Source: Selenomonadaceae bacterium (GTDB taxonomy: Bacteria > Bacillota > Negativicutes > Selenomonadales > Selenomonadaceae). Taken from it: 64,000 nucleotides of DNA. Where the stretch lies: assembly GCA_017484005.1 (NCBI GenBank), contig JAFUTY010000013.1, forward strand, positions 3,454 through 67,453, read 5' to 3'. The notes beneath the pieces were generated by a model. It did not search any database. It had not been told where the DNA came from and saw nothing but the letters and a program-made list of their open reading frames with translations. Position numbers and translations under genes: made by a program. Below, piece after piece: positions 14,280-26,686 of this stretch (position 1 is its first letter; every line of letters begins with the position of its first letter).

Positions 14280-14327
14280 AAAAAGATCCCCGACAGATCG
14301 CGTTGATCTATCGGGGATCTTTTTTTA
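14280..14327 (-). terminator. Bidirectional rho-independent terminator after the PP2C phosphatase gene
   Basis: AAAAA-GATCCCCGA c AGATC gcgtt GATCT a TCGGGGATC-TTTTTTT. Stems of 9+5 bp. The stop codon of the 14325 gene lies in the T/A tract. Confidence 0.8.
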
Positions 14328-16511
14328 GTTCCGGAATCTCACTGCGAGCATCGTGATATCGTCTGATTGAGCAGCCTCTCCAACATGATCTGAAATATCT
14401 GCACGAACTGCTTTCAATAATGTTTTGAGATCCGTCGTCTTATCGAGGGAATTGATCGTTTTTGACAATCGATCCTCACCATATTGATTGTTCGAAATAT
14501 CCATCGCCTCAGTGACTCCATCGGTGTAGAGATAAAGAATATCGCCGGATTTCAAATCGACTTCCTGCTGCTCAAAATCCATTCCATCCATCATTCCGAG
14601 CACAACATTCTGCTCGACGTTCAAAAACTCGAATCGATCTTCAGATTTTCGATAAAGCATTGGAGGATTGTGTCCGCCGTTGACATAGATGAACTTTCCA
14701 GTTTTCAAATCAAGCATTCCCATGAAAACTGTCACAAACATCATTTCATCATTTCCATCGCAAAGCTGTTGATTCGCGAGAGTCATGACTGCCGAGAGAT
14801 CGTCCGGAGATTTCATCGATAGCGCAAAATTTTTCAACACTGTTTTCGAGATAACCATGAATAGAGCTGCTGGAACTCCTTTGCCACTGACATCCGCGAT
14901 CGTGATCATTAAATGATTTTCATCGAGCATATAAAAATCATAAAAATCACCGCCAACCTCTTTCGCCGCATTCATTCGAGCATAAATTTCAAATCCTTTT
15001 CCGATGTTGAAATCTCGCGGAAGCATGCTGAGCTGGATATTCGTTGCAACATTCAATTCCGTCGCAATTCTTTCTTTATCAGCAGTGACTTTCGTCAGAT
15101 TCGCCATGTAATTTTTGAGTTCCATTGTCATTCCGTTGAAAGTTTCGGCGAGATGCTCGATTTCATTCCCTGTATGAATTTCCAATCTCTTATCAAGATT
15201 CCCACTCGCAATTTCTCTAACTCCATCGGACAAAATCATAATCGGTTTCGTCAATGTTTCAGAGATTTTTCTTCCAATATATGGAGCAATCAGAATCACA
15301 ATGACAAACGCAATAAGCATTAATGAAACCATCATCGTTATTGAACCGTTAAGAGTTTTGACAAATTCGCGAGTGCTATCTTCAATCATATGACGCGTAG
15401 TATCAGCAGGAATTGTGATTTCTGATTCTTCAATCACCACGCCAAAACTCCAGCCTGGACGATTTTCGATTGGAGTATAAGCGAGATAACATGGCTTTCC
15501 ATCGATATTGACTTGAGCGATTCCCTCTTGACCGTCAACCATCTCTTTCGCAACGGCAGAGATAGTCGGCTCTTTGCTATAGAGGAGACTCGGCGCGTCA
15601 TTGATATCATCGACATTGTTTATCGATAGAGAGCCGCCGCCCTCAGTTTTTGGAGAGAAAACAATTCGTCCATTTTGATTAATCAGAAAGCAATATCCAG
15701 TTTCACCGACATCAGTTTTGGTGACAATCTTATTGATATCAGTGAGAATTCGCCCTTCACCAATAATTCCAGCGATTTCGCCATTGTATCCATAATAAGG
15801 CATCGCGCATGAAATCGCCAATCCACGCCCATGACTATCAACAAAAATATTTGAAAAAGCTACATCCTGTTTCTCCATTGCCATCTTATACCATGGACGC
15901 TCGCGATAGTCATTGAACATCGGCACATTGTTTGAATCGACGCGACGCTCTGAAACATCATCGACGGTGATATTGAATCCATTCACTGACGAAACATAAA
16001 TCGCACCGACCGAAGGATTGTTTTCCATGATTCTCATCTGAAAATCTTGAAGATTCGCCGTCAATCCAACTTCTGTAGATAAATTCGCAGGATTGACATC
16101 GGCTCGATATTGAAGTTGAGGGACAATTCTTCCAGCGTTCAAAGCATTAGGAGGATTGACGCGACGCAAAGAATATTCCGAAGGATTCTGCAAAATTGCT
16201 GTCATTTCTTGAGACAGACTTCTAACATCGCGCTCAAAATCTCGAAATATAGTCTCAATCTGATCCGCCCGCTCATTGGCAAGACTCAAAAGTCCATTGA
16301 GAGTCTTAGTTTTCAGAGCTTGAGAGCTACTTTCCGCGGCAAAATTTCCAATATCAACGCCGATTTGAACTGAATCCTTTCGAACGTTATACATCGCGAC
16401 GAGAGAAATCAATCCTGCAACCAATAAAGACACGATGCAACATGCGAGCACCAGATATTGAACCTGCTTTTTGATTCCCATTCTGCCGATTTGTTTAAAC
16501 TTTTCTTTCAT
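14325..16511 (-). CDS. Membrane sensor PP2C phosphatase (SpoIIE/RsbU family) with extracytoplasmic Cache-like domain and HAMP
   Basis: 728 aa. TM helix, about 330 aa periplasmic region, second TM helix, HAMP (PIMILSDGVREIASGNLDKRLE). PP2C/SpoIIE motifs GGDFYDF, DVSGKGVPAALFM, YTDGVTEA, DDITMLAV. Confidence 0.85.
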   Translation of the reverse strand: MKEKFKQIGRMGIKKQVQYLVLACCIVSLLVAGLISLVAMYNVRKDSVQIGVDIGNFAAESSSQALKTKTLNGLLSLANERADQIETIFRDFERDVRSLSQEMTAILQNPSEYSLRRVNPPNALNAGRIVPQLQYRADVNPANLSTEVGLTANLQDFQMRIMENNPSVGAIYVSSVNGFNITVDDVSERRVDSNNVPMFNDYRERPWYKMAMEKQDVAFSNIFVDSHGRGLAISCAMPYYGYNGEIAGIIGEGRILTDINKIVTKTDVGETGYCFLINQNGRIVFSPKTEGGGSLSINNVDDINDAPSLLYSKEPTISAVAKEMVDGQEGIAQVNIDGKPCYLAYTPIENRPGWSFGVVIEESEITIPADTTRHMIEDSTREFVKTLNGSITMMVSLMLIAFVIVILIAPYIGRKISETLTKPIMILSDGVREIASGNLDKRLEIHTGNEIEHLAETFNGMTMELKNYMANLTKVTADKERIATELNVATNIQLSMLPRDFNIGKGFEIYARMNAAKEVGGDFYDFYMLDENHLMITIADVSGKGVPAALFMVISKTVLKNFALSMKSPDDLSAVMTLANQQLCDGNDEMMFVTVFMGMLDLKTGKFIYVNGGHNPPMLYRKSEDRFEFLNVEQNVVLGMMDGMDFEQQEVDLKSGDILYLYTDGVTEAMDISNNQYGEDRLSKTINSLDKTTDLKTLLKAVRADISDHVGEAAQSDDITMLAVRFRN

Positions 16512-17539
16512 TCAACAATAATCCTGCCTTCATAACATTTTTTCACATAGTCACGAATCTTTGAAAAATTTTCAGTCAACGTGAGCAAATCGAAATTAAT
16601 CGAAACTTTTCGCGGATTATGAAGAATCATGACTTCACGTTCAGAACATAACGGCTTGAATCCTGCGAAAAAATATCCCAACTTTTTCAAGATTTGATAA
16701 GCAGTAACAGATTTTGAATCGCTCATATTCAAAAAAATATTGAACGTTTGCAAATCTGAATTGAATTGCGAATGTAACGATTCAACTTTCGAAATCAGAT
16801 CTTCACCGGCTGAATCGATTTCAATCATGCAATTTTGTTGAATCGAATCGTTTGAGAAATTCCAAATCGTTTGACCATCGATCGGTTGAGATTCATGAAT
16901 CAAGTCGAATTTCACTTTCAACGATTTATAAATTTTTTGCGCAAAATCTCGATGTTCTTCCGCGATGTAAATTTTGCCCGCGTCATGCTTAGAAACTTTT
17001 CGAATAGTAAAACCGAGAGTATGTTTCAAATTTTCATCGATTGAGAATGAATGTTGAAAATTTTGCGCGATAATCAATTGAGGAACAAATCCAGTCGGCT
17101 TTAATCCTAGACGCTCCATCAATTTTTCAGTGATATCATGATACAAAACCAATCGACAATAAATCGCAGAAACATTTGGGAGCTTTCGAATTTGAGCGGC
17201 GATATATTTGGAAAAATTTTGGAAAATGTAATAGCGTCGATATTTTTTCAAAACGATTCCAGACGAGATTCCGCACGATGTTTCTCGCGGAAGATTTCGA
17301 GTCAGCGATAGACATCCAATTATCTCGCCATCTGACTTTTCTGCGACGTAAGTGATCATCTTTCCAGATTCCTGCTGATGAATTATGTAATTTGGATCGT
17401 ACAAATCTCGCTTGTGATATTTATCTCCATATTCATCGCGAATCAAATCAATAAAACTTGCGACGTCATTCGATTTAAATTGACGAAATCTCACGTTGAT
17501 CGATTTGCCTTCCGAATTTTTCAGTTCAATAAAATCCAT
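16508..17539 (-). CDS. Hypothetical two-domain protein, weak GNAT-acetyltransferase-like N-terminal domain
   Basis: 343 aa. Overlaps the downstream phosphatase gene by 4 nt. The region ITYVAEKSDGEIIGCLSLTR...VLKKYRRYYIF looks GNAT-like but lacks a clear Q/RxxGxG motif. Confidence 0.35.
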   Translation of the reverse strand: MDFIELKNSEGKSINVRFRQFKSNDVASFIDLIRDEYGDKYHKRDLYDPNYIIHQQESGKMITYVAEKSDGEIIGCLSLTRNLPRETSCGISSGIVLKKYRRYYIFQNFSKYIAAQIRKLPNVSAIYCRLVLYHDITEKLMERLGLKPTGFVPQLIIAQNFQHSFSIDENLKHTLGFTIRKVSKHDAGKIYIAEEHRDFAQKIYKSLKVKFDLIHESQPIDGQTIWNFSNDSIQQNCMIEIDSAGEDLISKVESLHSQFNSDLQTFNIFLNMSDSKSVTAYQILKKLGYFFAGFKPLCSEREVMILHNPRKVSINFDLLTLTENFSKIRDYVKKCYEGRIIVE

Positions 17540-17542
17540 CGA

Positions 17543-19297
17543 TTATTTCTCCTTCCGATTTATAACCACCGCAAGATTATTGATTCCAAGCGTACTTTTA
17601 TAATGAATTTCTTCTGCCGCTTGAGAAATCATCGAAATTCCGAGCGCATCACTCATTGCAAATTCATCCGGATCGATCTCTTTCATTCGTTCGTAATAAT
17701 CGATTGGATTGAACGTCTTTCCACCGTTGCGAATTCGAAGAATGATCGTCGATTCGTCAATCAAAATTCGCACATCGATCCTTTCATCTGCAACGGAATC
17801 GAAACAATGATCCTTGATACTCACAAGCATCTCTTCCATTGACAATTGAATCAGCATGACATCTTTCGAATCGAGTTGATTTTGCTCACAGAATTCGACG
17901 ATTTTTTTGACGCTATCGACAATCGAATCGAGATTTGATTTGACAGTGAAAGAGATAAATCTTCCATCGCGTTCAGATTTCAAATCGAGGAGCAGAATTT
18001 TGGATCGATCATGAAAATCGAGTACGAATTCGCAATAACTCTGATAAAGTTCCAAACCAAAGATCAGAATTGCGAGAGTTCCAACTGACGCAATGATAAA
18101 TGAATACCAAATTCCGTTGATACCAATTTCATTCGACAGAAAATATGCAGGGATCAATAGAAGTAAAAATCCTCGAGAGATCGTGATGAAATTTGCGAGT
18201 CTAGCGAATTTTGCGGATTGATAATAGCTCGTCAGAATCATGCAAATCGTTGCGGGAATCAAACTCAACGAGAAAATTCGAATCGCCTCGGAAGTTTGAA
18301 ATTGTTCGATAGAATCAGTAATTCCAAAGAGATCGCAAATTCGATCTGGAAAAATGCAAATCAAAATGACGCTCGGAATCAGAATCACGAGCGAAAGTTT
18401 GTGAGAATAAGATTCGACGTATCGAAGACTCACATTGTCTTTTTCTTGCGAAAACATCCCGATGAATGCTGAAGTTGCTTGAGAAATTCCGGAGAGAATA
18501 GTATTTGACAGAGCCTCAATAGTTTTCACGACAGAAAAAATCACGAGCCCAACATGTCCCGCGACAACTAGAAGTAGATTGTTCATAATAATGAATCTGA
18601 CGAAGTTGAGAATCTGATTTAGCATCGACGGCGTTCCAAATTTGATTAATGCTTGCGAATGATTCATAAATTTTCGCGTGAATTTAAATGAATCAGTCAA
18701 TAAATACATACCGATTAGAACAGTCAACATCGATGAAAAAACAATTCCGAGCGCAATTCCCTCGAATCCGAAACCGAATCCAATGCAAAAAATGAAATCG
18801 AAAACTGCATTTTCAATCATCATTCCGACGAATAGAATAATCATTGCGCGAAGTTGTCCCGAGAGTTTCATGAAGTGATAAGGCATATAAAATAGCGATG
18901 TGAAAACTCCGCCGAGTGTGTAAATTGTCGCGTAAGATTCAGACATCGAATAAATTTTGTCTGTGCAACCGAGGATATAGAGGAGTTCGCGTTGAAATAT
19001 CAACATCAGAATCGTTGCGAAAATCGATAAACCAATCGCGAATGCAAATGAACATGTGAATCTTGAATTTGCTTCAGATTTATCGTCGCGCCCGAGTGAA
19101 TGTGATGTGATAATTGCGCCGCCGATTCCAATCAATGCACCGATCGCCGCGTAAACTGAATAAATCGGTGAGACGACACTCATCGCCGCGAGTCCATCTG
19201 ATCCGAAAAATTTTCCAGTGAGAATTGAATTCACGACGATGCATAATTGAACTCCCGCCATTGACAGCGACGCGGAAATTGCATGTTTATTGAACAA
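17543..19297 (-). CDS. MATE-family transporter fused to a C-terminal degenerate RsbW-like HATPase_c domain
   Basis: 584 aa. About 440 aa form a 12-helix hydrophobic MATE-like body. The C-terminal 135 aa (SMEEMLVSIKDH ... IRNGGKTFNP ... DALGISMI) are colinear with the kinase domain at 11045-12043, but the N-box Asn and the G1/G2 residues are altered. Confidence 0.65.
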   Translation of the reverse strand: MFNKHAISASLSMAGVQLCIVVNSILTGKFFGSDGLAAMSVVSPIYSVYAAIGALIGIGGAIITSHSLGRDDKSEANSRFTCSFAFAIGLSIFATILMLIFQRELLYILGCTDKIYSMSESYATIYTLGGVFTSLFYMPYHFMKLSGQLRAMIILFVGMMIENAVFDFIFCIGFGFGFEGIALGIVFSSMLTVLIGMYLLTDSFKFTRKFMNHSQALIKFGTPSMLNQILNFVRFIIMNNLLLVVAGHVGLVIFSVVKTIEALSNTILSGISQATSAFIGMFSQEKDNVSLRYVESYSHKLSLVILIPSVILICIFPDRICDLFGITDSIEQFQTSEAIRIFSLSLIPATICMILTSYYQSAKFARLANFITISRGFLLLLIPAYFLSNEIGINGIWYSFIIASVGTLAILIFGLELYQSYCEFVLDFHDRSKILLLDLKSERDGRFISFTVKSNLDSIVDSVKKIVEFCEQNQLDSKDVMLIQLSMEEMLVSIKDHCFDSVADERIDVRILIDESTIILRIRNGGKTFNPIDYYERMKEIDPDEFAMSDALGISMISQAAEEIHYKSTLGINNLAVVINRKEK

Positions 19298-19426: not shown

Positions 19427-19760
19427 ATGCCAAATTTAAACTTTGTCGGCAAATCGAAAGTCGTCAATCATCATCGCGACGTGTCATTCAGATTTCTCGA
19501 GCGTCAATATGGATTGAGCGAGAACATGATCATTCATGGCGATAATCTACTCGCATTGAGATCTCTACTTGCAACACATCGCGGAAAGATCAAATGCATT
19601 TATATCGATCCTCCATATAACACTGGAAACGAAAATTGGATCTATAATGACAACGTCAACGATCCAGAGATTCGATCTTGGATTGGAAAAGTTGTTGGTG
19701 ATGAAGAAACTGATCTGAATCGTCATGATAAATGGCTATGCATGATGTATCCTCGACTTC
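19427..19760 (+). repeat. Direct repeat copy A1 (5' block of Mod paralog 1), near-identical to 22082-22415
   Basis: Exact shared runs verified by eye: 44 nt (19457-19500 = 22112-22155) and 54 nt (19622-19675 = 22277-22330). Confidence 0.9.
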
Positions 19761-20914
19761 GATTGTTACATGAATTATTAAGTGATGACGGTGCGATCTT
19801 TATTTCGATCGATGATAATGAAGTTGCAAATTTGAAATTGATCTGCAACGAGATTTTTGGAATCAATAATTTCATCGTGATGTTTACATGGCGAAGAAGA
19901 TCTGGAGCGAATGATGCTCTGAATAATGTCTCGCTCGATCATGAATATGTTGTCTGCTATTCAAAATCGAAAAAATTCTCGATGAATGGAGTCACTAAAA
20001 ATTTTGAGAAATATTCGAATCCAGATAATGATCCTCGAGGAGCATGGGTTCGAGGCGATTTAACTTGTGGAAAAACTGCAGATCAGCGACCGAATCTTTT
20101 CTATCCAATTACAGATCCAAAAACAGGAATCACTTATCAATGCAATCCAGATCATGTTTGGAGATTCGAGAGAAATCGAATGCAACAGTTGATCGAGACT
20201 GGAAAAGTTCTATTCCCTGCAGATGGAAATGGTCGCCCTGCATATAAGAGACATCAAGCGGAAGTCAGATCTGAAACCAAACCATTCAGCTCAATCATCG
20301 AAACAAAATTGAATTCAGCGGCGACTCGAGAATTGCGAGATATTTTTGGAAAGCAGGTTTTCGATTATCCAAAGACAGTTGATTTGATTCGACAGATCGT
20401 TTATCAATCAACCGATCCCGATTCGATTGTGCTCGATGCATTTGCAGGATCTGGAACGACAGCTCAATCAGTTATCGAGTTAAATCGAGAAGATCATGGA
20501 AATCGAAAATTCATTTTGATCGAGTTAATGGATTATTGCGAATCGATAACTGCTGAAAGAGTTCGTCGAATCAATGGAGATTTTTCTTTCTATGAATTAG
20601 GAGATCCAATTTTCATCGAGGACGAGATCAATCCAGATCTATCGAGAGATTTATTCCGTCGATATTTATATTTCTCGGAAACAAAAAAAGAGATCCCACC
20701 AATGAATCCCGATGAACCTACATTACTCGGAATCAATGATGGAATCGGTTATCACTTAATCGATGGAGATTTGAATTTCAATTCTCTCGCACAGATCAAA
20801 ACTCGATCAAATTCATATGTAATATATGCAGAGTCATGCACGATTTCTCAAGAGACTCGCGATCAATTCAAAATCATTTTTAGAAAAATTCCGCGCGATG
20901 TGAGGAGAATCTAA
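19427..20914 (+). CDS. Beta-class N6-adenine/N4-cytosine DNA methyltransferase, Type III Mod-like, paralog 1 (unique central TRD)
   Basis: Motif IV DPPYNTGNE lies upstream of motif I DAFAGSGTTAQ (beta-class order). The start is set at the ATG at 19427, preceded by GGAGGA; the ORF-track start at 19379 adds 16 unlikely residues. The TAA stop overlaps the next ATG by 1 nt. Confidence 0.9.
   Translation: MPNLNFVGKSKVVNHHRDVSFRFLERQYGLSENMIIHGDNLLALRSLLATHRGKIKCIYIDPPYNTGNENWIYNDNVNDPEIRSWIGKVVGDEETDLNRHDKWLCMMYPRLRLLHELLSDDGAIFISIDDNEVANLKLICNEIFGINNFIVMFTWRRRSGANDALNNVSLDHEYVVCYSKSKKFSMNGVTKNFEKYSNPDNDPRGAWVRGDLTCGKTADQRPNLFYPITDPKTGITYQCNPDHVWRFERNRMQQLIETGKVLFPADGNGRPAYKRHQAEVRSETKPFSSIIETKLNSAATRELRDIFGKQVFDYPKTVDLIRQIVYQSTDPDSIVLDAFAGSGTTAQSVIELNREDHGNRKFILIELMDYCESITAERVRRINGDFSFYELGDPIFIEDEINPDLSRDLFRRYLYFSETKKEIPPMNPDEPTLLGINDGIGYHLIDGDLNFNSLAQIKTRSNSYVIYAESCTISQETRDQFKIIFRKIPRDVRRI
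20411..20914 (+). repeat. Direct repeat copy B1 (3' block of Mod paralog 1), highly similar to 23072-23575
   Basis: Includes a 50 nt exact run (20667-20716 = 23328-23377). The first ~190 nt (motif I block) also recur in paralog 2 at about 21880-22077. Confidence 0.85.
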
Positions 20915-22077
20915 TGCTAAATTTTATCGGCAAGGATCAAGTTTCAAATCTCGAAGTAGAATATCGAAAGCTCAATCGAATCTATGGCGACAGCGATAAT
21001 CGAATCATTCACGCCGATAATTTGCTCGCGCTGAAATCTCTGATTCCAATGTATTGCGGCGAAATCAAATTGATATACATCGATCCGCCGTATAACACTG
21101 GAAACGAGGGCTGGATATATAATGACAACGCCAAAGATCCAAATCTCGCGCGATGGATTTCTCAAGTTGTCGGGAATGCAAAACTCGATCGACACGATAA
21201 ATGGCTATGCATGATGTATCCGCGACTTCGATTAATGCATGAACTTTTATCGGAAGATGGATCGCTGTGGATTTCGATTGACGATGATGAAGTCGATTAT
21301 CTGAAAGTGATTTGCGATGAGATTTTTGATCGGAAGAATTTTGTGGCACATATAATTTGGGAGAAAAAATATGCTCCTCAAAACGATGCTCGATGGCTGT
21401 CTGATAATCATGATTTCATTTTGGTTTATGCAAAGGATAAATCTCGATGGCGACCGAATCCATTGCCGCGAACTTCCGAAATGGATTCGCGATACAAAAA
21501 TCCGGACAATGATCCTCGCGGAGTTTGGAAATCGACAGATCTATCGTCGAGAGGATCTAGATTTCAATTCGCGATTCAATCTCCCACCGGAAAAATTTTC
21601 TATCCTCCAGAGGGACGTCAATGGGCTTTCGAAAAATCAAGACTCGATGAATTGCTCAAAGATAATCGAATTTGGTTTGGAAAAACTGGAAATCGAGCTC
21701 CCGCATTGAAATCATTTTTATCGGAAGTCAAACAGGGATCAGTTGCAAAAACAATCTGGACTCGCGAAGAAGTCGGTGATAATCAAGAGGCGAAACAGGA
21801 AATCAAGCGATTCAATTTCGATGAAGTATTTACAACTCCAAAACCGACGCGACTTATCAAACGAATCTTGCAACTCGCGTCGAATCGAGATTCAATTGTG
21901 TTAGATAGTTTTGCGGGATCTGGAACGACTGCTCAAGCTGTTATCGAATTGAATCGAGAGGATTCTGGATCTCGAAAATTCATCTTGATTGAATCCATGG
22001 ATTATTGCGAATCGATAACAGCCGAGCGAATTCGTCGAATCGGTGGAGATTTTTCATTCTATGAATTGGAGGATTGA
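20914..22077 (+). CDS. Beta-class DNA methyltransferase, Mod-like, paralog 2 (short form lacking the C-terminal tail)
   Basis: DPPYNTGNE and DSFAGSGTTAQ are present. The central region is homologous to paralog 3. The protein ends at ...FSFYELED, where paralogs 1 and 3 continue for about 115 aa. Confidence 0.9.
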   Translation: MLNFIGKDQVSNLEVEYRKLNRIYGDSDNRIIHADNLLALKSLIPMYCGEIKLIYIDPPYNTGNEGWIYNDNAKDPNLARWISQVVGNAKLDRHDKWLCMMYPRLRLMHELLSEDGSLWISIDDDEVDYLKVICDEIFDRKNFVAHIIWEKKYAPQNDARWLSDNHDFILVYAKDKSRWRPNPLPRTSEMDSRYKNPDNDPRGVWKSTDLSSRGSRFQFAIQSPTGKIFYPPEGRQWAFEKSRLDELLKDNRIWFGKTGNRAPALKSFLSEVKQGSVAKTIWTREEVGDNQEAKQEIKRFNFDEVFTTPKPTRLIKRILQLASNRDSIVLDSFAGSGTTAQAVIELNREDSGSRKFILIESMDYCESITAERIRRIGGDFSFYELED

Positions 22078-22081
22078 TCGA

Positions 22082-22415
22082 ATGCCAAATCTGAATTTCG
22101 TTGGAAAAAATAAAGTCGTCAATCATCATCGCGACGTGTCATTCAGATTTCTCGAACGTCAATATGGATCGAGCGAGAATATGATCATTCACGGCGATAA
22201 TCTGTTGGCACTTCGATCTCTCAACGCGATGTATCGAGGAAAGATCAAATGTATCTATATCGATCCACCTTACAATACTGGAAACGAAAATTGGATCTAT
22301 AATGACAACGTCAACGATCCAGAGATTCGAAGTTGGATTGGTAAAGTTGTTGGCGATGAAGAAACAGATCTGAATCGTCACGATAAATGGTTATGCATGA
22401 TGTATCCTCGATTGA
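22082..22415 (+). repeat. Direct repeat copy A2 (5' block of Mod paralog 3)
   Basis: See copy A1. The offset is 2655 bp. Confidence 0.9.
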
Positions 22416-23575
22416 GATTGTTGCAGGAGTTGTTGAGTGATGACGGCTCGATTTGGATTTCGATTGATGATGTTGAGATTTCAAATTTGAGAAAGATTTG
22501 TGATGAGATTTTTGGCTCGAATAATTTTGTGGCGCATGTGATTTGGGAGAAAAAATATTCGCCGCAGAATGATGCTCGATGGCTGTCTGATAATCACGAT
22601 TTCATTTTGGTTTATGCAAAGAATAAATCGATCTGGCGACCGAATTTATTGCCGAGGACTGCAGAGATGGATGCTCGATACAAAAATCCAGACAATGATC
22701 CTCGAGGAGCATGGACATCTGGAGCTTTGCAAGCTAAAAGTGGAACTGATAATTATGTTTATGAAATCACTTCTCCGACTGGAAAAAAATTTCTACCACC
22801 GACTGGCACATTCTGGAGATTTTCGAAAGATAGATTCGAAGAATTGATCGCAGATAATCGAATTTGGTTCGGTGAAGATGGAAACAATGTTCCTCGATTG
22901 AAAAGATTTTTATCAGATGTAAAACAAGGATCAGTTTCAAAAACTATTTGGAATCGAGACGAAGTTGGAGATAATCAAGAAGCAAATCGAGAGTTCAAGA
23001 GTTTCAACTTCGATCAATTCTTTGCAACTCCAAAACCTACTCGATTGATTCGCAAAATTCTTCAACTTGCATCAGATCCCGACTCAATAATTCTCGATGC
23101 ATTTGCAGGATCTGGAACGACTGCTCAATCAGTTATCGAGTTGAATCGAGAGGATTCTGGATCTCGAAAATTCATTTTGATCGAATCCATGGATTATTGC
23201 GAATCGATAACAGCGGAACGAGTTCGTCGAGTTGGCGGAGATTTCTCGTTCTATGAATTAGGAGATCCAATTTTTATCGAGGATCAATTGAATCCAAATT
23301 TATCGAGAGATCAATTTCGAAGATATCTATATTTCTCGGAAACAAAAAAAGAGATCCCACCAATGAATCCCGATGAATCAACTCTTCTCGGAATTCATGA
23401 TGGAATCGCTTATCACTTAATCGATGGAGAATTGAATCTCGATTCGCTCGCACAGATCAAAACTCGATCAAAAAGCTACATTATATATAGTGATTTGTGC
23501 CGGATCGATCAATCGGATCTCGATCGATTCAAAATCTATTTCAGAAAAATTCCGCGCGATGTTCGTCGAATGTAG
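22082..23575 (+). CDS. Beta-class DNA methyltransferase, Mod-like, paralog 3 (ends like paralog 1, centre like paralog 2)
   Basis: DPPYNTGNE and DAFAGSGTTAQ. The start is set at the ATG at 22082 (MPNLNFVGKNKVVNHH, colinear with paralog 1). The ORF-track start at 22043 would overlap paralog 2. Confidence 0.9.
   Translation: MPNLNFVGKNKVVNHHRDVSFRFLERQYGSSENMIIHGDNLLALRSLNAMYRGKIKCIYIDPPYNTGNENWIYNDNVNDPEIRSWIGKVVGDEETDLNRHDKWLCMMYPRLRLLQELLSDDGSIWISIDDVEISNLRKICDEIFGSNNFVAHVIWEKKYSPQNDARWLSDNHDFILVYAKNKSIWRPNLLPRTAEMDARYKNPDNDPRGAWTSGALQAKSGTDNYVYEITSPTGKKFLPPTGTFWRFSKDRFEELIADNRIWFGEDGNNVPRLKRFLSDVKQGSVSKTIWNRDEVGDNQEANREFKSFNFDQFFATPKPTRLIRKILQLASDPDSIILDAFAGSGTTAQSVIELNREDSGSRKFILIESMDYCESITAERVRRVGGDFSFYELGDPIFIEDQLNPNLSRDQFRRYLYFSETKKEIPPMNPDESTLLGIHDGIAYHLIDGELNLDSLAQIKTRSKSYIIYSDLCRIDQSDLDRFKIYFRKIPRDVRRM
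23072..23575 (+). repeat. Direct repeat copy B2 (3' block of Mod paralog 3)
   Basis: See copy B1. It also shares 35 nt and 32 nt exact runs with paralog 2 around 21948-22018. Confidence 0.85.
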
Positions 23576-23587
23576 GAGGTTGAAGTC

Positions 23588-26215
23588 ATGGAATTGAAGC
23601 CGTTTCAGCGTGAAATCATTGGAGATTTGAAACTCTATCTCGATTTGCTCGATCAAATGAACAATCTATCTTTTGCGTGGGAAGTTTTTCATTCGCGGAA
23701 GAAGAATCGCGACGCGCTGAATTATCAAAACACAATCGAAGGCGTGCCGCATGTCTGTGTCAAAGTTCCAACTGGCGGTGGAAAAACATTTATCGCGGCG
23801 TCTGCACTCAAAACAATTTTCGATGGAATCCCTCAGCTCGATACTCGATTCGTCATTTGGCTCGTTCCGTCAGATTCAATTCTCGAGCAGACAATTCGAA
23901 ATTTATCAAACATCGAGCATCCATATCGTCAAAAACTCGAGCAGGATTTCAATGGCAACGTTCAAATTTTTACGAAAGATGAAATGCTCCTCGGACAAAA
24001 TTTTTCACCGAGCACCGTCGATTCAAATTCATTATCGATCGGAATTTTGAGTTATAGTTCATTGCGAATCGATTCGAAGAAGAAAGATTCTCGCAAAATT
24101 TTTCAACCGAATGGAAATCTGCAGACGTTCGATGAATTTGGCGAGGAGAATTTTTTGGAAAATACTCCAGAATCTGCATTGATTCAGATAATTCGTCGAT
24201 TCAAACCAGTCGTGATAGTCGATGAATCTCACAACGCAACATCAACTTTGAGCGTCGAAATGCTATCAAATCTGAATCCGAGTTTCATTCTCGATCTCAC
24301 TGCAACTCCTCGAAAGAATAGCAACATCTTATCAATCGCAAGTCCTCTCGAATTGAAAAACGAAAGCATGGTTAAAATTCCAGTGATCGTTTACAATCGT
24401 CCCTCGACTGAAGTTGTGATCGAATATGCAATTGCACTTCAGAAAAGTCTCGAGGAGTTTGCAAAATCTGAATCGCAATATATTCGTCCAATCGTATTAT
24501 TCCAAGCTCAACCGAATATGAAATCGAAGGAATCGGAAACATTCGAGAAGATTCGCGAGAAATTGATCGCTAAAAAAATTCCAAGAGATCAAATCGCGAT
24601 CAAAACTTCAAACATCAATGAAATCGCTGGAATCGATCTGATGTCTGAAAAATGTCCGATTCGATTCATCATCACAGTCAACGCGCTCAAAGAAGGTTGG
24701 GATTGTCCTTTTGCATATGTCTTAGCATCGATCGCAAATCGAAATTCAGAAATCGATGTTGAGCAGATCGTCGGAAGAATTTTGAGACAGCCGAACGCGA
24801 CTCGATGCAAGAATAACGCGCTGAATTGCTCATATGTTTTCACGAGTTCTGATGAATTCCGTGCGACTCTCGAAAAAATTGTGAATGGATTAAACAACGC
24901 TGGATTTTCTCGAAACGATTGTCGCGTGACAGATTCCGAGGATCAATTTGAGGATCAATTCGAAGATCAGATCGAGATTCAACATGAAATTCCAAAAATC
25001 GAGACTCAAATCGAGAATCCAATTGAGACTCAATCTGAAATCGAAATTCCGCCCGAATCTGAAATCGTCGAGGATAAAATTGAAGATCAAATCGAGAATC
25101 CAGTTGAAGATCAAACTGAATCTAAAATTGATGATCAAGTTGTCGAGGAAATCAAAACTCCAATCAATGTTGAGGAGATCATTCGGCAGGCTGATGAATT
25201 AAATCGCGAGTTCAATTCAAAACCTCGAATCGAGACTCGTGATAATTCTCGACAAATTGGAATCCGTCCAGAATTTCGAGAGGAGATCGAGCATTTCAAA
25301 CTTCCGCAATTCACAATTCAAACACCGAGTCTCGCACTGTTTTCGAGCGGCGATAAATTGCTCCAGCCGACAGATTTGCTCCGAGAATTTTCACTCGAAT
25401 CCGCCGATGCAAAAATCGATTTGAGTTTCGATGCGAACATGTATCAAATCGATTTGGATAAAGGTAGCGATGGAATTCCAGCGTATCGATTGGTTTCGCA
25501 AGATGCTAAGAAATTTTTTGTCGATTATCTCAAAATTCCAAAGGATAGACGTCGCTCGAGATTTCTCGGTGAAGTCATGAAAAATCTTGATCGCGATGAT
25601 GAAATTGGATTGAATTCGATTCAAAATTATGTGCGTCGAGTGATTGATTCGATGGATGAGGATTTGATCGGAAAATATGAACAGATTCCATGGATATTTG
25701 CAAGAAAAATCCGCGATAAAATTATTTCATTGAAACGAGATTATTGCGAAAATAGATTCTATGATTTGATTGGGCGCGAAATGATTCATTGCGAAGATCA
25801 ATTTGAATTTCCAACGAGCATTTCTCTCAAAATGACAAAACCGATCAAACGATCACTGTATGAATTGGAGCAAGATGATCTGAACAATTTCGAGCGAGAA
25901 GCGGTGCGAGCGTTAATTGAGATTCCGAATGTTAAATGGTGGCATCGAAACATTTCGCGGCGAGGATTTTGTTTGAATGGATTCGAGCGTCATTATCCAG
26001 ATTTCATAATTCGACTTGAATCTGGAAAAACGATCTTACTCGAGACGAAGGGAGATCATCTCGATGGATCTGATTCGCAGAAAAAATTGAAACTCGGAAC
26101 GAAATGGGCAAATCTGAGTGGCGAGGATTTTCGATATTTCATGGTCTTTGGAAAACAGTCGATAGATGATTCGCTGACGCTCGATCAATTTTTGAATCAA
26201 ATTAGATCTCTTTGA
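23588..26215 (+). CDS. Type III restriction Res-like subunit: SF2 helicase/ATPase with C-terminal PD-(D/E)xK nuclease
   Basis: 875 aa. Motif I VPTGGGKTFIAA, motif II VIVDESHN, motif III DLTATP, motif VI QIVGRILRQP. C-terminal YPDFIIRLESGKTILLETKG (PD...ExK). GGAGG RBS. Located 12 nt after the last mod gene. Confidence 0.88.
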   Translation: MELKPFQREIIGDLKLYLDLLDQMNNLSFAWEVFHSRKKNRDALNYQNTIEGVPHVCVKVPTGGGKTFIAASALKTIFDGIPQLDTRFVIWLVPSDSILEQTIRNLSNIEHPYRQKLEQDFNGNVQIFTKDEMLLGQNFSPSTVDSNSLSIGILSYSSLRIDSKKKDSRKIFQPNGNLQTFDEFGEENFLENTPESALIQIIRRFKPVVIVDESHNATSTLSVEMLSNLNPSFILDLTATPRKNSNILSIASPLELKNESMVKIPVIVYNRPSTEVVIEYAIALQKSLEEFAKSESQYIRPIVLFQAQPNMKSKESETFEKIREKLIAKKIPRDQIAIKTSNINEIAGIDLMSEKCPIRFIITVNALKEGWDCPFAYVLASIANRNSEIDVEQIVGRILRQPNATRCKNNALNCSYVFTSSDEFRATLEKIVNGLNNAGFSRNDCRVTDSEDQFEDQFEDQIEIQHEIPKIETQIENPIETQSEIEIPPESEIVEDKIEDQIENPVEDQTESKIDDQVVEEIKTPINVEEIIRQADELNREFNSKPRIETRDNSRQIGIRPEFREEIEHFKLPQFTIQTPSLALFSSGDKLLQPTDLLREFSLESADAKIDLSFDANMYQIDLDKGSDGIPAYRLVSQDAKKFFVDYLKIPKDRRRSRFLGEVMKNLDRDDEIGLNSIQNYVRRVIDSMDEDLIGKYEQIPWIFARKIRDKIISLKRDYCENRFYDLIGREMIHCEDQFEFPTSISLKMTKPIKRSLYELEQDDLNNFEREAVRALIEIPNVKWWHRNISRRGFCLNGFERHYPDFIIRLESGKTILLETKGDHLDGSDSQKKLKLGTKWANLSGEDFRYFMVFGKQSIDDSLTLDQFLNQIRSL
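24932..25153 (+). repeat. Degenerate acidic low-complexity repeat inside res (E/D-Q-I/F-E units)
   Basis: Encodes DSEDQFEDQFEDQIEIQHEIPKIETQIENPIETQSEIEIPPESEIVEDKIEDQIENPVEDQTESKIDDQVVEEIK. The nucleotide level shows reiterated gaRgatcaaWtYga units. Confidence 0.8.
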
Positions 26216-26227
26216 GGAGTCGATCTC

Positions 26228-26548
26228 ATGAAAAAATTTTTGATCGCGCTAATTCTTTTCATCATTCCGAGCATCACTCACGCTCAAGATGTTTGGATTT
26301 ATTCTCACGACGAAATCGATTCATACATCATCGAGGAGTCAATCGTCGCGGAATCTGATTCAGTGACAGTCACGACGAAAGATGTTCAAGATGGAAGATT
26401 ATTGCGAACGATTCATTGGAAATTCGAAAATGTTTTTGATCAATGGAGATATGAAACTTCAGAAATGGATGGATTTCATACGACGGTTGTAATTGAAGAT
26501 GGATTATCTGGAAAAATTTTGCGATTCTGTTTAGATCATTCAAACTGA
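26228..26548 (+). CDS. Small secreted hypothetical protein
   Basis: 106 aa. Signal peptide MKKFLIALILFIIPSITHA/QD. GAGGAG RBS. Starts 12 nt after the res stop, and a terminator follows directly. Confidence 0.65.
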   Translation: MKKFLIALILFIIPSITHAQDVWIYSHDEIDSYIIEESIVAESDSVTVTTKDVQDGRLLRTIHWKFENVFDQWRYETSEMDGFHTTVVIEDGLSGKILRFCLDHSN

Positions 26549-26558
26549 ATCTAAAAAA

Positions 26559-26593
26559 ATCCCTTCCGAAAAAATCGGGAGGGATCTTTTTTT
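26559..26593 (+). terminator. Rho-independent terminator closing the mod-mod-mod-res-orf operon
   Basis: ATCCCTTCCG-aaaaaat-CGGGAGGGAT (10 bp including one G.U) followed by CTTTTTTT and preceded by an A7 tract. Confidence 0.85.
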
Positions 26594-26686
26594 ATTTGTG
26601 AGTGAAATCTATGAAAGGATTTCGACGTCAAAAATCAAATTAATCGAGCGAAATTATGTATCGAGAAATTGAAGGGGGGATTCATC

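What the first reader, a model, noticed from the sequence alone, without database searches (positions are those of the whole stretch)
19427..26215. Three tandem Mod-like methyltransferases serving a single Res: a multi-Mod Type III-like restriction/defence locus
Canonical Type III R-M systems are one mod plus one res. Here three complete beta-class methyltransferase genes sit head to tail: a 1 nt TAATG overlap, then a 4 nt gap. They are followed after 12 nt by one Res-like SF2 helicase with a C-terminal PD-ExK nuclease, and one terminator sits at 26559.

All three MTases keep motif IV (DPPYNTGNE) and motif I (F/AGSGTT), so none looks dead. Their central target-recognition regions fall into two types: paralog 1 is unique, while paralogs 2 and 3 are related but diverged.

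This predicts either a nuclease programmed by up to three specificities or a reservoir of alternative specificity modules. I am not aware of a described system with this architecture.
Basis: partly seen in the sequence, partly recalled or inferred. Interest (0 to 1): 0.8.

Follow-up and report, generated by a model that had tools for sequence, protein, structure and literature searches.

The report
Type III restriction operon, three Mods
A gut bacterium carries a Type III restriction-modification operon with three methyltransferase genes and one nuclease gene, a layout already described in mycoplasmas, though here the middle methyltransferase lacks the tail domain that every nuclease-linked relative has.

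Summary
mod1 (19427-20914), mod2 (20914-22077), mod3 (22082-23575) and res (23588-26215) lie head to tail with the stated 1-nt overlap and 4-nt and 12-nt gaps. All four are intact and under purifying selection.

The claim that the architecture is undescribed is wrong. [quoted passage not shown]

It stops at the end of the methyltransferase core and lacks the ~108-residue C-terminal domain (CTD) of Mod1 and Mod3. That CTD is present in all 123 Res-linked relatives sampled and absent from 41 Res-less relatives. In EcoP15I, the Mod CTD in the same position holds Res.

Most likely reading: two Res-competent specificities (Mod1, Mod3) plus one methylation-only specificity (Mod2).

Unlike the mycoplasma loci, there are no repeat tracts or invertible segments. 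Strains do vary, with mod1 deleted, a mod1 CTD frameshift, three Mod3 recognition-domain alleles and an unlinked fourth Mod.

Verdict: a new variant of a known kind, of moderate interest.

The parts
19218..19247 (+). Weak sigma-70-like promoter candidate upstream of mod1. It is the only one upstream of the operon.
   Evidence: GTGAGA-18-CATAAT, 9 of 12 matches. Promoter-like sites in the region are not above the shuffled expectation, so this is only a candidate. The upstream intergenic region is conserved in L107, where it drives the mod2-like gene directly.
19427..20914 (+). mod1: full-length Type III Mod (495 aa) with its own type of target-recognition domain (TRD).
   Evidence: PF01555 at E 1.6e-39. 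PADLOC MTase_III PDLC03644 matches positions 1-541 of 542. The TRD is 33% identical to Mod3, while the N- and C-terminal constant parts are 79-90% identical. dN/dS versus strain L001 is 0.13.
20582..20911 (+). C-terminal domain (CTD) of Mod1, the proposed Res-coupling module.
   Evidence: The CTD profile (A5) hits every Res-adjacent Mod in 94 of 94 and 29 of 29 loci. It sits in the same position as the EcoP15I Mod CTD that contacts Res. It is disrupted by a 10-nt deletion in strain L110.
20914..22077 (+). mod2: short-form Mod (387 aa) with a complete methyltransferase core and TRD but no CTD.
   Evidence: PF01555 at E 5e-45. It matches only positions 3-396 of 542 in PDLC03644 and ends at FSFYELED*. 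It is 99% conserved between strains, with dN/dS 0.044. The closest outside relative, P0122 (79% identity, same end point), is a solitary gene with no Res.
22082..23575 (+). mod3: full-length Type III Mod (497 aa) adjacent to res.
   Evidence: PF01555 at E 6.5e-43. PDLC03644 matches positions 1-541 of 542 at 590 bits. PDB sequence hits are 6k0w Mod (240 bits) and EcoP15I Mod (182 bits). The AlphaFold2 model has pLDDT 86, and its best fold hit is 4zcf_A with TM 0.71.
22682..22862 (+). Hypervariable patch of the Mod3 TRD. Coordinates are approximate.
   Evidence: Three alleles are 43-73% nt identical here but 92-100% identical in the flanks: window, L001/L107, and the unlinked copy L108.
23243..23572 (+). 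C-terminal domain (CTD) of Mod3.
   Evidence: Same profile evidence as for the Mod1 CTD. The AlphaFold2 model of the CTD alone has pLDDT 82 and forms an alpha/beta globule with no significant PDB fold hit.
23588..26215 (+). res: SF2 helicase plus C-terminal PD-ExK nuclease (875 aa).
   Evidence: PF04851 at E 1.3e-17. PADLOC REase_III scores 257 and 251 bits. The C-terminus hits the BPTD_3080 restriction endonuclease family. Helicase motifs PTGGGKT, DESHN, TATP and QxxGRxxR, and the nuclease residues PD805/E819xK821, are invariant in 26 homologues. dN/dS is 0.057.
24937..25141 (+). Acidic low-complexity linker in Res, encoded by imperfect 12/24-nt repeats between the helicase and nuclease parts.
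   Evidence: This stretch is the unconserved part of the Res family alignment.
26228..26548 (+). Small ORF (106 aa, signal peptide) 12 nt after res and before the terminator. Probably co-transcribed and not part of the conserved R-M module.
   Evidence: Homologues occur only in the same species (L001, L002, L084) and in none of the other loci. No Pfam, NCBIfam or PADLOC hit.
26559..26595 (+). Intrinsic terminator closing the operon.
   Evidence: 11-bp stem with 6 GC pairs, followed by a T-run.

Best explanation
This is a chromosomal Type III restriction-modification operon of an uncultured gut bacterium, labelled Selenomonadaceae by NCBI. The mod gene has been multiplied into three co-transcribed, translationally coupled paralogues ahead of one res.

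Mod1 and Mod3 are full-length. They share nearly identical constant parts but carry different target-recognition domains. Each is expected to form Mod dimers that hemi-methylate its own asymmetric site. Through the C-terminal domain (CTD), each should recruit the single Res (SF2 motor plus PD-ExK nuclease) to cut DNA carrying unmethylated, inversely oriented copies of that site. One nuclease would then serve two specificities.

Mod2 is a short form that ends exactly at the end of the methyltransferase core. Lacking the CTD, it most likely acts as a Res-uncoupled methyltransferase. It would add a third, strain-invariant methylation motif that is not restricted.

Nothing in the locus allows on/off or inversion switching. 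Diversity arises instead by homologous recombination between the repeated constant regions and by replacement of a ~180-nt recognition patch in Mod3.

Shown here: gene structure, family membership, intactness, selection, the link between CTD and Res, and strain variation. Inferred: complex formation, which Mods couple to Res, and that the recognition domains differ in specificity.
For: **Architecture and family**

**Single operon**
- Every gene has a strong ribosome-binding site, and the gaps are -1, 4 and 12 nt.
- Internal promoter-like sites are not above chance, and there is one strong terminator.

**All genes functional**
- dN/dS versus a second strain is 0.13, 0.044, 0.225 and 0.057 for mod1, mod2, mod3 and res.
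- Mod2 versus its 79%-identical solitary relative gives dN/dS 0.048.

**The CTD travels with Res**
- 94 of 94 Res-adjacent Mods in the GTDB and IMG/VR loci carry the CTD.
- 29 of 29 Res-linked Mods in a Mod-centred IMG/VR sample carry it. None of the 41 CTD-less Mod-like methyltransferases there has a Res next to it.
- The CTD-less relatives P0122 and P0213 end at the same residue as Mod2 and are solitary genes.

**Structural precedent**
- In EcoP15I the recognising Mod protomer binds Res through its methyltransferase domain and CTD. The other protomer methylates, and its CTD is free (PMC4490356).

**Mod3 behaves like an arms-race specificity determinant**
- Its recognition patch has three alleles among close strains.
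- The Mod2 recognition domain is 99% conserved.

**No switching machinery**
- There are no repeat tracts or inverted repeats.

**Recombinational plasticity**
- L107 has mod1 deleted at the same chromosomal site.
- L110 has a 10-nt deletion in the mod1 CTD.
- L108 is an unlinked full-length Mod whose first ~600 nt are 100% identical to L001 mod3.
Against: - Homology between this family's CTD and the EcoP15I CTD is not shown. The sequence profile finds nothing in the PDB, and the CTD model alone has no significant fold hit. The Res-coupling role therefore rests on position and co-occurrence only.
- The co-occurrence statistic is phylogenetically confounded. The CTD-less phage methyltransferases form their own clade.
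- In EcoP15I the methyltransferase domain also contacts Res, so Mod2 might retain weak coupling. It might also ride along in heterodimers with Mod1 or Mod3.
- No methylome, expression or restriction data exist for this organism.
- A difference in specificity between the Mod2 and Mod3 recognition domains (69% identical) is assumed, not measured.
- An unlinked CTD-bearing Mod without an adjacent Res (L108), and four IMG/VR cases, show the CTD is not strictly tied to a neighbouring res.
Confidence: 0.6

Rival explanations
1. One reading: all three Mods programme the single Res, giving a nuclease with three restriction specificities.
For: - All three have intact catalytic and SAM-binding motifs and are co-expressed with Res.
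- In EcoP15I the methyltransferase domain of the recognising protomer also touches Res, so loss of the CTD need not abolish binding.
- In a Mod2:Mod1 or Mod2:Mod3 heterodimer, the partner's CTD could tether Res.
Against: - Mod2 lacks the whole CTD.
- None of 123 Res-linked Mods lacks it.
- Mod2's nearest outside relatives are Res-less solitary genes.
- In EcoP15I it is the CTD of the recognising protomer that holds Res.
Confidence: 0.15
2. Mod2 is not an independent specificity. It is a dedicated partner subunit that forms heterodimers with Mod1 or Mod3. In these, the full-length subunit recognises DNA and holds Res, and Mod2 supplies catalysis. This would be an obligate asymmetric Mod heterodimer, analogous to METTL3-METTL14.
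For: - EcoP15I shows a division of labour in which the methylating protomer needs neither its recognition domain in the groove nor its CTD.
- The Mod2 core is 77-88% identical to Mod1 and Mod3 around motifs I-III.
- Mod2 is the most conserved of the three between strains (dN/dS 0.044).
- It persists in the two-mod strain L107.
Against: - Mod2 keeps a complete recognition domain under purifying selection, which a purely catalytic subunit would not need.
- Close relatives work as solitary genes with no full-length partner nearby.
- The Mod2 N-terminal segment is the most diverged constant part (63-65% identity). By analogy to EcoP15I this segment is the dimerisation region, which argues for self-pairing rather than mixed pairing.
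- None of 123 related systems needs such a partner.
Confidence: 0.12
3. The extra mod copies are recent duplication debris with no separate function. Only mod3-res is the working system.
For: - mod3 is the copy adjacent to res, as in all single-mod relatives.
- mod1 is deleted in L107 and frameshifted in L110.
- Mod2 is truncated relative to the family norm.
Against: - All three are intact in at least four independent assemblies.
- dN/dS is 0.04-0.23, with 24 synonymous against 4 non-synonymous changes in mod2.
- Paralogues are old (dS 0.5-3 between copies) yet remain open.
- The Mod2 truncation falls exactly at a domain boundary and is shared with functional-looking solitary relatives.
Confidence: 0.06
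4. The locus is mainly an epigenetic regulator, as proposed for phase-variable multi-mod mycoplasma loci, rather than a defence system.
For: - The multi-mod mycoplasma loci are discussed as phasevarions (PMC5909438).
- The Mod2 specificity is strain-invariant, like regulatory orphan methyltransferases.
- The locus sits among signalling genes rather than in a defence island.
Against: - There are no repeat tracts or any other switch.
- Res is intact and strongly constrained.
- Turnover of the Mod3 recognition patch between strains is the signature of restriction specificity under diversifying pressure.
Confidence: 0.07

Closest known systems
Mycoplasma bovis PG45 Type III locus Mbo45ORF167P (M1, M2, M3 plus Res; Mbo45V = Mod1+Res). 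A similar cluster is reported for M. pulmonis.
   Same: - One res is served by three tandem mod paralogues with conserved 5' and 3' parts and a variable central recognition domain.
- All three keep DPPY and FxGxG (PMC5909438; bioRxiv 10.64898/2026.05.01.722158).
- Which of the extra Mods couple to Res is untested there as well.
   Different: - The mycoplasma mods each carry an AG/GA repeat tract (11, 14 and 24 repeats) and so can switch on and off independently. This locus has none.
- The three M. bovis Mods are about 70% identical to each other, and the papers report no short form. Here the middle Mod lacks the CTD.
- The protein families are distant. The Mbo45V Mod (7dsu) is 21% identical to Mod3.
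- The host is a gut bacterium labelled Selenomonadaceae, not a minimal-genome pathogen.
EcoP15I / EcoPI (prototype Type III R-M, Mod2Res1)
   Same: - Beta-class Mod with an inserted recognition domain and an extra C-terminal globular domain.
- Res is an SF2 helicase plus PD-ExK nuclease.
- mod lies immediately upstream of res.
- The best fold match of Mod3 is 4zcf_A.
   Different: - EcoP15I has a single mod.
- Res here shows no sequence hit to EcoP15I Res in the PDB search and belongs to another REase_III subfamily.
- The Mod N-terminal domain is much shorter here.
- CTD homology is undetected.
Type III mod allele families with recognition-domain exchange (modA in Haemophilus/Neisseria; domain movement between H. 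pylori mod genes)
   Same: Constant 5' and 3' regions flank a hypervariable central recognition domain that is swapped by recombination between strains and between paralogues (PMC1557822, PMC3467074). Here Mod3 has three patch alleles, and an unlinked paralogue shares 100%-identical flanks with it.
   Different: In those systems the alleles occupy one locus per strain, or unlinked loci each with its own res. Here the variants sit in tandem in one operon with one res.
Solitary Mod-like beta-class methyltransferases without the CTD (bacterial P0122 and P0213; many phage-encoded relatives)
   Same: Mod2 shares their domain make-up of core plus recognition domain with no CTD. It shares its exact end point with P0122 and P0213.
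   Different: Those genes stand alone with no Res nearby. Mod2 is embedded between two full-length mods in a Res operon.

Membership tests
Type III restriction-modification system | Mod is a beta-class amino-methyltransferase: motif IV (DPPY), then the recognition domain, then motif I (FxGxG). | tested here: met
   All three Mods meet this. PF01555 at E 1e-39 to 1e-45, the motifs and their order, PADLOC MTase_III models as top hits, and PDB Mod hits.
Type III restriction-modification system | Res is an SF2 helicase-like ATPase with a C-terminal PD-(D/E)xK nuclease. | tested here: met
   PF04851, REase_III at 257 bits, and helicase motifs I, II, III and VI plus PD805/E819xK821 invariant in 26 homologues. 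There is no direct sequence hit to EcoP15I Res, so this is a distant subfamily.
Type III restriction-modification system | mod lies directly upstream of res on the same strand. | tested here: met
   The same order holds in 123 related loci.
Type III restriction-modification system | Mod carries a C-terminal domain through which the recognising protomer holds Res (EcoP15I structure). | tested here: inconclusive
   Mod1 and Mod3 have a ~108-residue alpha/beta CTD in the same position, and it co-occurs with Res in all 123 sampled loci. Homology to the EcoP15I CTD is not detected. Mod2 lacks the domain entirely.
Type III restriction-modification system | Forms a Mod2Res1 complex, cleaves ATP-dependently about 25-27 bp from one of two inversely oriented unmethylated asymmetric sites, and methylates one strand only. 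| not testable with these tools
   This needs biochemistry or a methylome.
Multi-Mod Type III loci of Mycoplasma (Mbo45ORF167P type) | Several tandem mod paralogues with conserved ends and variable recognition domains next to a single res. | tested here: met
   compared.
Multi-Mod Type III loci of Mycoplasma (Mbo45ORF167P type) | A dinucleotide repeat tract in each mod, giving independent phase variation. | tested here: not met
   There is no repeat tract in any mod, and no inverted repeats either.
Multi-Mod Type III loci of Mycoplasma (Mbo45ORF167P type) | Close sequence relationship to the Mbo45V proteins. | tested here: not met
   The 7dsu Mod is only 21% identical (99 bits by phmmer). Res has no PDB hit, and no Mbo45V Res sequence was available.
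Specificity shufflon (Type I hsdS-like invertible reservoir) | Inverted repeats within specificity genes plus a site-specific recombinase. | tested here: not met
   Only direct repeats are present. The two inverted pairs of 21-22 nt look like chance matches. No recombinase is among the neighbouring genes examined.
Solitary (orphan) Mod-like methyltransferase (Mod2 only) | Methyltransferase core plus recognition domain without the CTD, encoded away from any res. | tested here: inconclusive
   The domain make-up is met, and the end point matches the solitary P0122 and P0213. The location is not met, because Mod2 sits in a Res operon.

The most novel reading that the evidence does not exclude
The CTD-less Mod2 is a purpose-built subunit. 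It would pair with Mod1 or Mod3 to form asymmetric heterodimers: the full-length subunit reads DNA and holds Res, and the short subunit methylates. Alternatively it would compete with them to set the balance between methylation and restriction. On this reading the operon is a natural Type III enzyme with an obligate division of labour between different polypeptides, rather than a simple multi-specificity array.
Probability: 0.12. Interest if true: 0.7.

Novelty: new variant of a known kind. Interest (0 to 1): 0.38.

Why it matters
Whether one Res can be shared by several Mods of different specificity is still untested. Even in M. bovis only Mod1+Res has been characterised.

This locus offers a cleaner test bed than the mycoplasma one:
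- All genes are constitutively in frame.
- There are no TGA-Trp codons to recode.
- It contains a natural CTD-less Mod alongside two CTD-bearing ones.
- Natural variants exist: mod1 deleted, a mod1 CTD frameshift, and swapped Mod3 recognition patches.

It could show directly whether the Mod C-terminal domain is what couples recognition to restriction, and whether mixed Mod dimers form. Both points bear on how Type III systems avoid self-restriction and how they gain new specificities.

Tried and rejected
**Searches that failed or were uninformative**
1. The metagenome-contig scan with the Res alignment failed with a tool error and still used the cap. No JGI census was possible.
2. The PLSDB plasmid tblastn with Mod3 found 459 records with 471 places. 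The one two-place record inspected (Psychrobacter plasmid, H15) is two identical mod-res pairs on one plasmid record (possibly a duplication or assembly artefact), not tandem mods.
3. Dybvig 2007 on M. pulmonis (PMC1899405) is not held. That locus is cited only second-hand.

**CTD homology to EcoP15I**
4. A CTD profile against PDB sequences gave no hit even at E of 10. The AlphaFold2 model of the CTD alone gave no Foldseek hit at E of 0.001 or better. Homology is left open.

**Ideas rejected**
5. Phase variation: no repeat tracts.
6. Inversion shufflon: no meaningful inverted repeats.
7. Mod2 as a helper methylase for Mod3 sites. The Mod3 recognition patch is replaced between strains while the Mod2 recognition domain stays 99% identical, so the two cannot share a specificity across strains.
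8. Mod2 as a donor of recognition segments to Mod3. The variable patches of the Mod3 alleles are at most about 75% identical to mod2.
9. Other defence systems that pair a methyltransferase with a helicase (DISARM, BREX). PADLOC returned only R-M family models (Type III best; weaker Type II, orphan-MTase and one Type IIG hit) for these proteins.

Full report
**1. What is there**

The region holds four tightly packed genes on the + strand.
- mod1 runs 19427-20914 (495 aa).
- mod2 runs 20914-22077 (387 aa) and overlaps mod1 by 1 nt (TAATG).
- mod3 runs 22082-23575 (497 aa) after a 4-nt gap.
- res runs 23588-26215 (875 aa) after a 12-nt gap.

Each start codon has a strong GGAGG-type ribosome-binding site. 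The site for mod3 lies inside the last codons of mod2. A fifth small ORF (26228-26548, 106 aa, signal peptide) follows res by 12 nt. The only convincing terminator is at 26559. Internal promoter-like matches are fewer than in shuffled sequence (10 against 16.9), so a single operon is the simplest reading.

The flanking genes are chromosomal signalling and transport genes: a SpoIIE-type phosphatase, a MatE transporter, a chemoreceptor and a sugar-binding protein. This is not a defence island or a mobile element. The four proteins are in NCBI as MBR1419882-85, labelled 'MAG: Selenomonadaceae bacterium'.

**2. Family**

- All three Mods are PF01555 proteins with DPPYNTGNE and FAGSGTT.
- Mod3 matches the H. 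pylori Mod 6k0w at 240 bits and EcoP15I Mod at 182 bits.
- An AlphaFold2 model of Mod3 (pLDDT 86) has EcoP15I Mod chain A as its best fold match (TM 0.71).
- PADLOC's REBASE-derived model MTase_III PDLC03644 covers Mod1 and Mod3 end to end (positions 1-541 of 542). REase_III models give Res 257 and 251 bits.
- Res has helicase motifs I, II, III and VI and a C-terminal PD805...E819xK821. All are invariant in 26 homologues.
- Res shows no detectable sequence similarity to EcoP15I Res in the PDB search. It belongs to a large family with more than 8000 members at about 45% identity.

This is a genuine Type III R-M system by every feature that can be tested in silico.

**3.

Mod2 is not a full Mod. 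It ends at ...GGDFSFYELED*. That is the last strand of the methyltransferase core and exactly where Mod1 and Mod3 continue for about 108 more residues. It covers only positions 3-396 of 542 in the PADLOC model.

The paralogues are a mosaic:
- Mod1 and Mod3 share their N-terminal part (90% aa identity) and C-terminal parts (79-83%). Their recognition domains are unrelated (33%).
- Mod2 has a recognition domain of the Mod3 type (69%), a more diverged N-terminus (63-65%), and no C-terminal domain (CTD).

**4. What the CTD is likely for**

In the EcoP15I Mod2Res1 structure, one protomer (ModA) reads the site with its recognition domain and holds Res through its methyltransferase domain and CTD. 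The other protomer (ModB) methylates, and its CTD is free (PMC4490356).

I could not show that the CTD here is homologous to the EcoP15I CTD. A CTD profile finds nothing in PDB sequences. A confident model of the CTD alone (pLDDT 82) has no significant fold hit.

The comparative evidence is strong, though.

| Sample | Mods with the CTD | Source |
|---|---|---|
| 100 loci found through Res homologues (80 GTDB species, 20 IMG/VR contigs) | 94 of 94 visible Res-adjacent Mods | |
| IMG/VR loci found through Mod, Res-linked | 29 of 29 | |
| IMG/VR loci found through Mod, CTD-less Mod-like methyltransferases | 0 of 41 have a Res next to them | |

The two closest short relatives of Mod2 outside this species end at the same residue and are solitary genes. 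P0122 (79% identity) is followed by fliD. P0213 is flanked by unrelated genes. I therefore read the CTD as the Res-coupling module and Mod2 as a Res-uncoupled methyltransferase.

**5. Are the genes alive?**

Comparison with a second strain, L001 (Res 98% identical, same arrangement), gives the following.

| Gene | dN/dS | Note |
|---|---|---|
| mod1 | 0.13 | |
| mod2 | 0.044 | 24 synonymous, 4 non-synonymous changes |
| mod3 | 0.225 | |
| res | 0.057 | |

Mod2 against its solitary relative gives 0.048. The paralogues are old (dS 0.5-3 between copies) yet intact. The three-mod form occurs in at least four independent assemblies. Decay or assembly artefact is excluded.

**6. How the locus varies**

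There are no repeat tracts in the mods and no meaningful inverted repeats. Phase variation and shufflon-type switching are out. Variation is recombinational instead.
- (a) Mod3 has a hypervariable patch of about 180 nt in the recognition domain (about 22682-22862). Three alleles are known, while the flanks are 92-100% identical.
- (b) The Mod2 recognition domain is 99% conserved between the same strains. Its specificity therefore does not track Mod3, which rejects the idea that Mod2 protects Mod3 sites.
- (c) Strain L107 has the same chromosomal site with mod1 gone. The mod1 promoter and first codons are fused to mod2.
- (d) Strain L110 has a 10-nt deletion that frameshifts the mod1 CTD.
- (e) L108 carries an unlinked, terminator-flanked, full-length Mod with no Res nearby. 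It comes from the same sample as L001. Its first ~600 nt are 100% identical to L001 mod3, and it has its own patch allele.

The species thus holds a small Mod multigene family around one Res.

**7. How rare, and how new**

In this Res family the arrangement is rare. None of the 123 Res-linked loci sampled has more than one intact mod. A few have one frameshifted mod.

The architecture is not undescribed, however.
- REBASE lists M1, M2 and M3.Mbo45ORF167P plus one Res in Mycoplasma bovis PG45.
- Atack et al. 2018 describe the three as alleles of one mod with conserved ends and variable recognition domains (PMC5909438).
- Ahmed et al. 2026 characterise Mod1+Res as Mbo45V. It is a Mod2Res1 complex that recognises YAATC. 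They note a similar cluster in M. pulmonis.

Those loci differ in that each mod has an AG/GA repeat tract (11, 14 and 24 repeats), and the papers report no short form among the three Mods. Whether the extra Mods use the shared Res is untested there too.

**8. Verdict**

The best explanation is a constitutive multi-Mod Type III operon. It has two Res-competent specificities (Mod1, Mod3) and one methylation-only short Mod (Mod2). It evolves by recombination between its repeated constant regions. My confidence is about 0.6.

The main uncertainty is whether Mod2 couples to Res directly or through heterodimers. It is a new variant of a known kind and of moderate interest, mainly as a convenient natural system to test Mod-Res coupling and Mod heterodimerisation.

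Noticed in passing
L108:8001-9494 (ENA WOLF17-1 scaffold_609): This is a solitary full-length Mod with a CTD, flanked by terminators, sitting between a response regulator and a malic enzyme gene with no Res nearby. Its first ~600 nt are 100% identical to mod3 of L001 from the same sample, but its recognition patch differs. That implies a fourth, unlinked Mod paralogue kept similar by gene conversion.
   Followed up: partly
L107:6137-8326 (ENA GLEN20-2 scaffold_11456): This strain has the same chromosomal site with mod1 absent. The mod1 promoter, ribosome-binding site and first codons (MSNLNF) are fused to mod2. It is a natural two-mod variant, but the contig ends before res.
   Followed up: partly
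L110:1-1024 (ENA ERZ1667815 scaffold_118907, seen in 3 samples): mod1 carries a 10-nt deletion that frameshifts inside the CTD (...LLGINVII*). This is a second, independent loss of a Mod CTD at this locus.
   Followed up: partly
window 24937-25141: Res contains an acidic D/E/Q/I-rich low-complexity linker encoded by imperfect 12/24-nt repeats between the helicase and nuclease parts. It falls in the unconserved stretch of the family alignment. Res length differs between strains (875, 873 and 872 aa).
   Followed up: no
window 26228-26548: A 106-aa ORF with a signal peptide lies 12 nt after res and before the operon terminator. It is conserved only within this species and matches no family in Pfam, NCBIfam or PADLOC. 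Its function is unknown, and it is probably co-transcribed with the R-M genes.
   Followed up: partly
window 17543-19297 (- strand) with 16508-17539 and 14325-16511: The gene divergent from mod1 encodes a MatE transporter with an apparent C-terminal HATPase_c_2 (anti-sigma-kinase-like) domain (residues 463-569, E 3e-5, below the Pfam cut-off). It is followed by an unannotated 343-aa protein and a dCache-HAMP-SpoIIE phosphatase. This may be an unusual partner-switching module tied to an efflux pump.
   Followed up: no
L165:4290-8608 (IMG/VR 3300025138_012176): This viral contig carries two tandem CTD-less Mod-like methyltransferase genes and no Res. It is the only multi-copy case among the 79 Mod-centred viral loci.
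   Followed up: no
L083:1-98: The solitary Mod2-like gene P0122 is preceded by a run of imperfect ~20-nt direct repeats (AAAATCTCGAGTCGATTCTA-like) reaching the contig end. Their significance is unknown.
   Followed up: no
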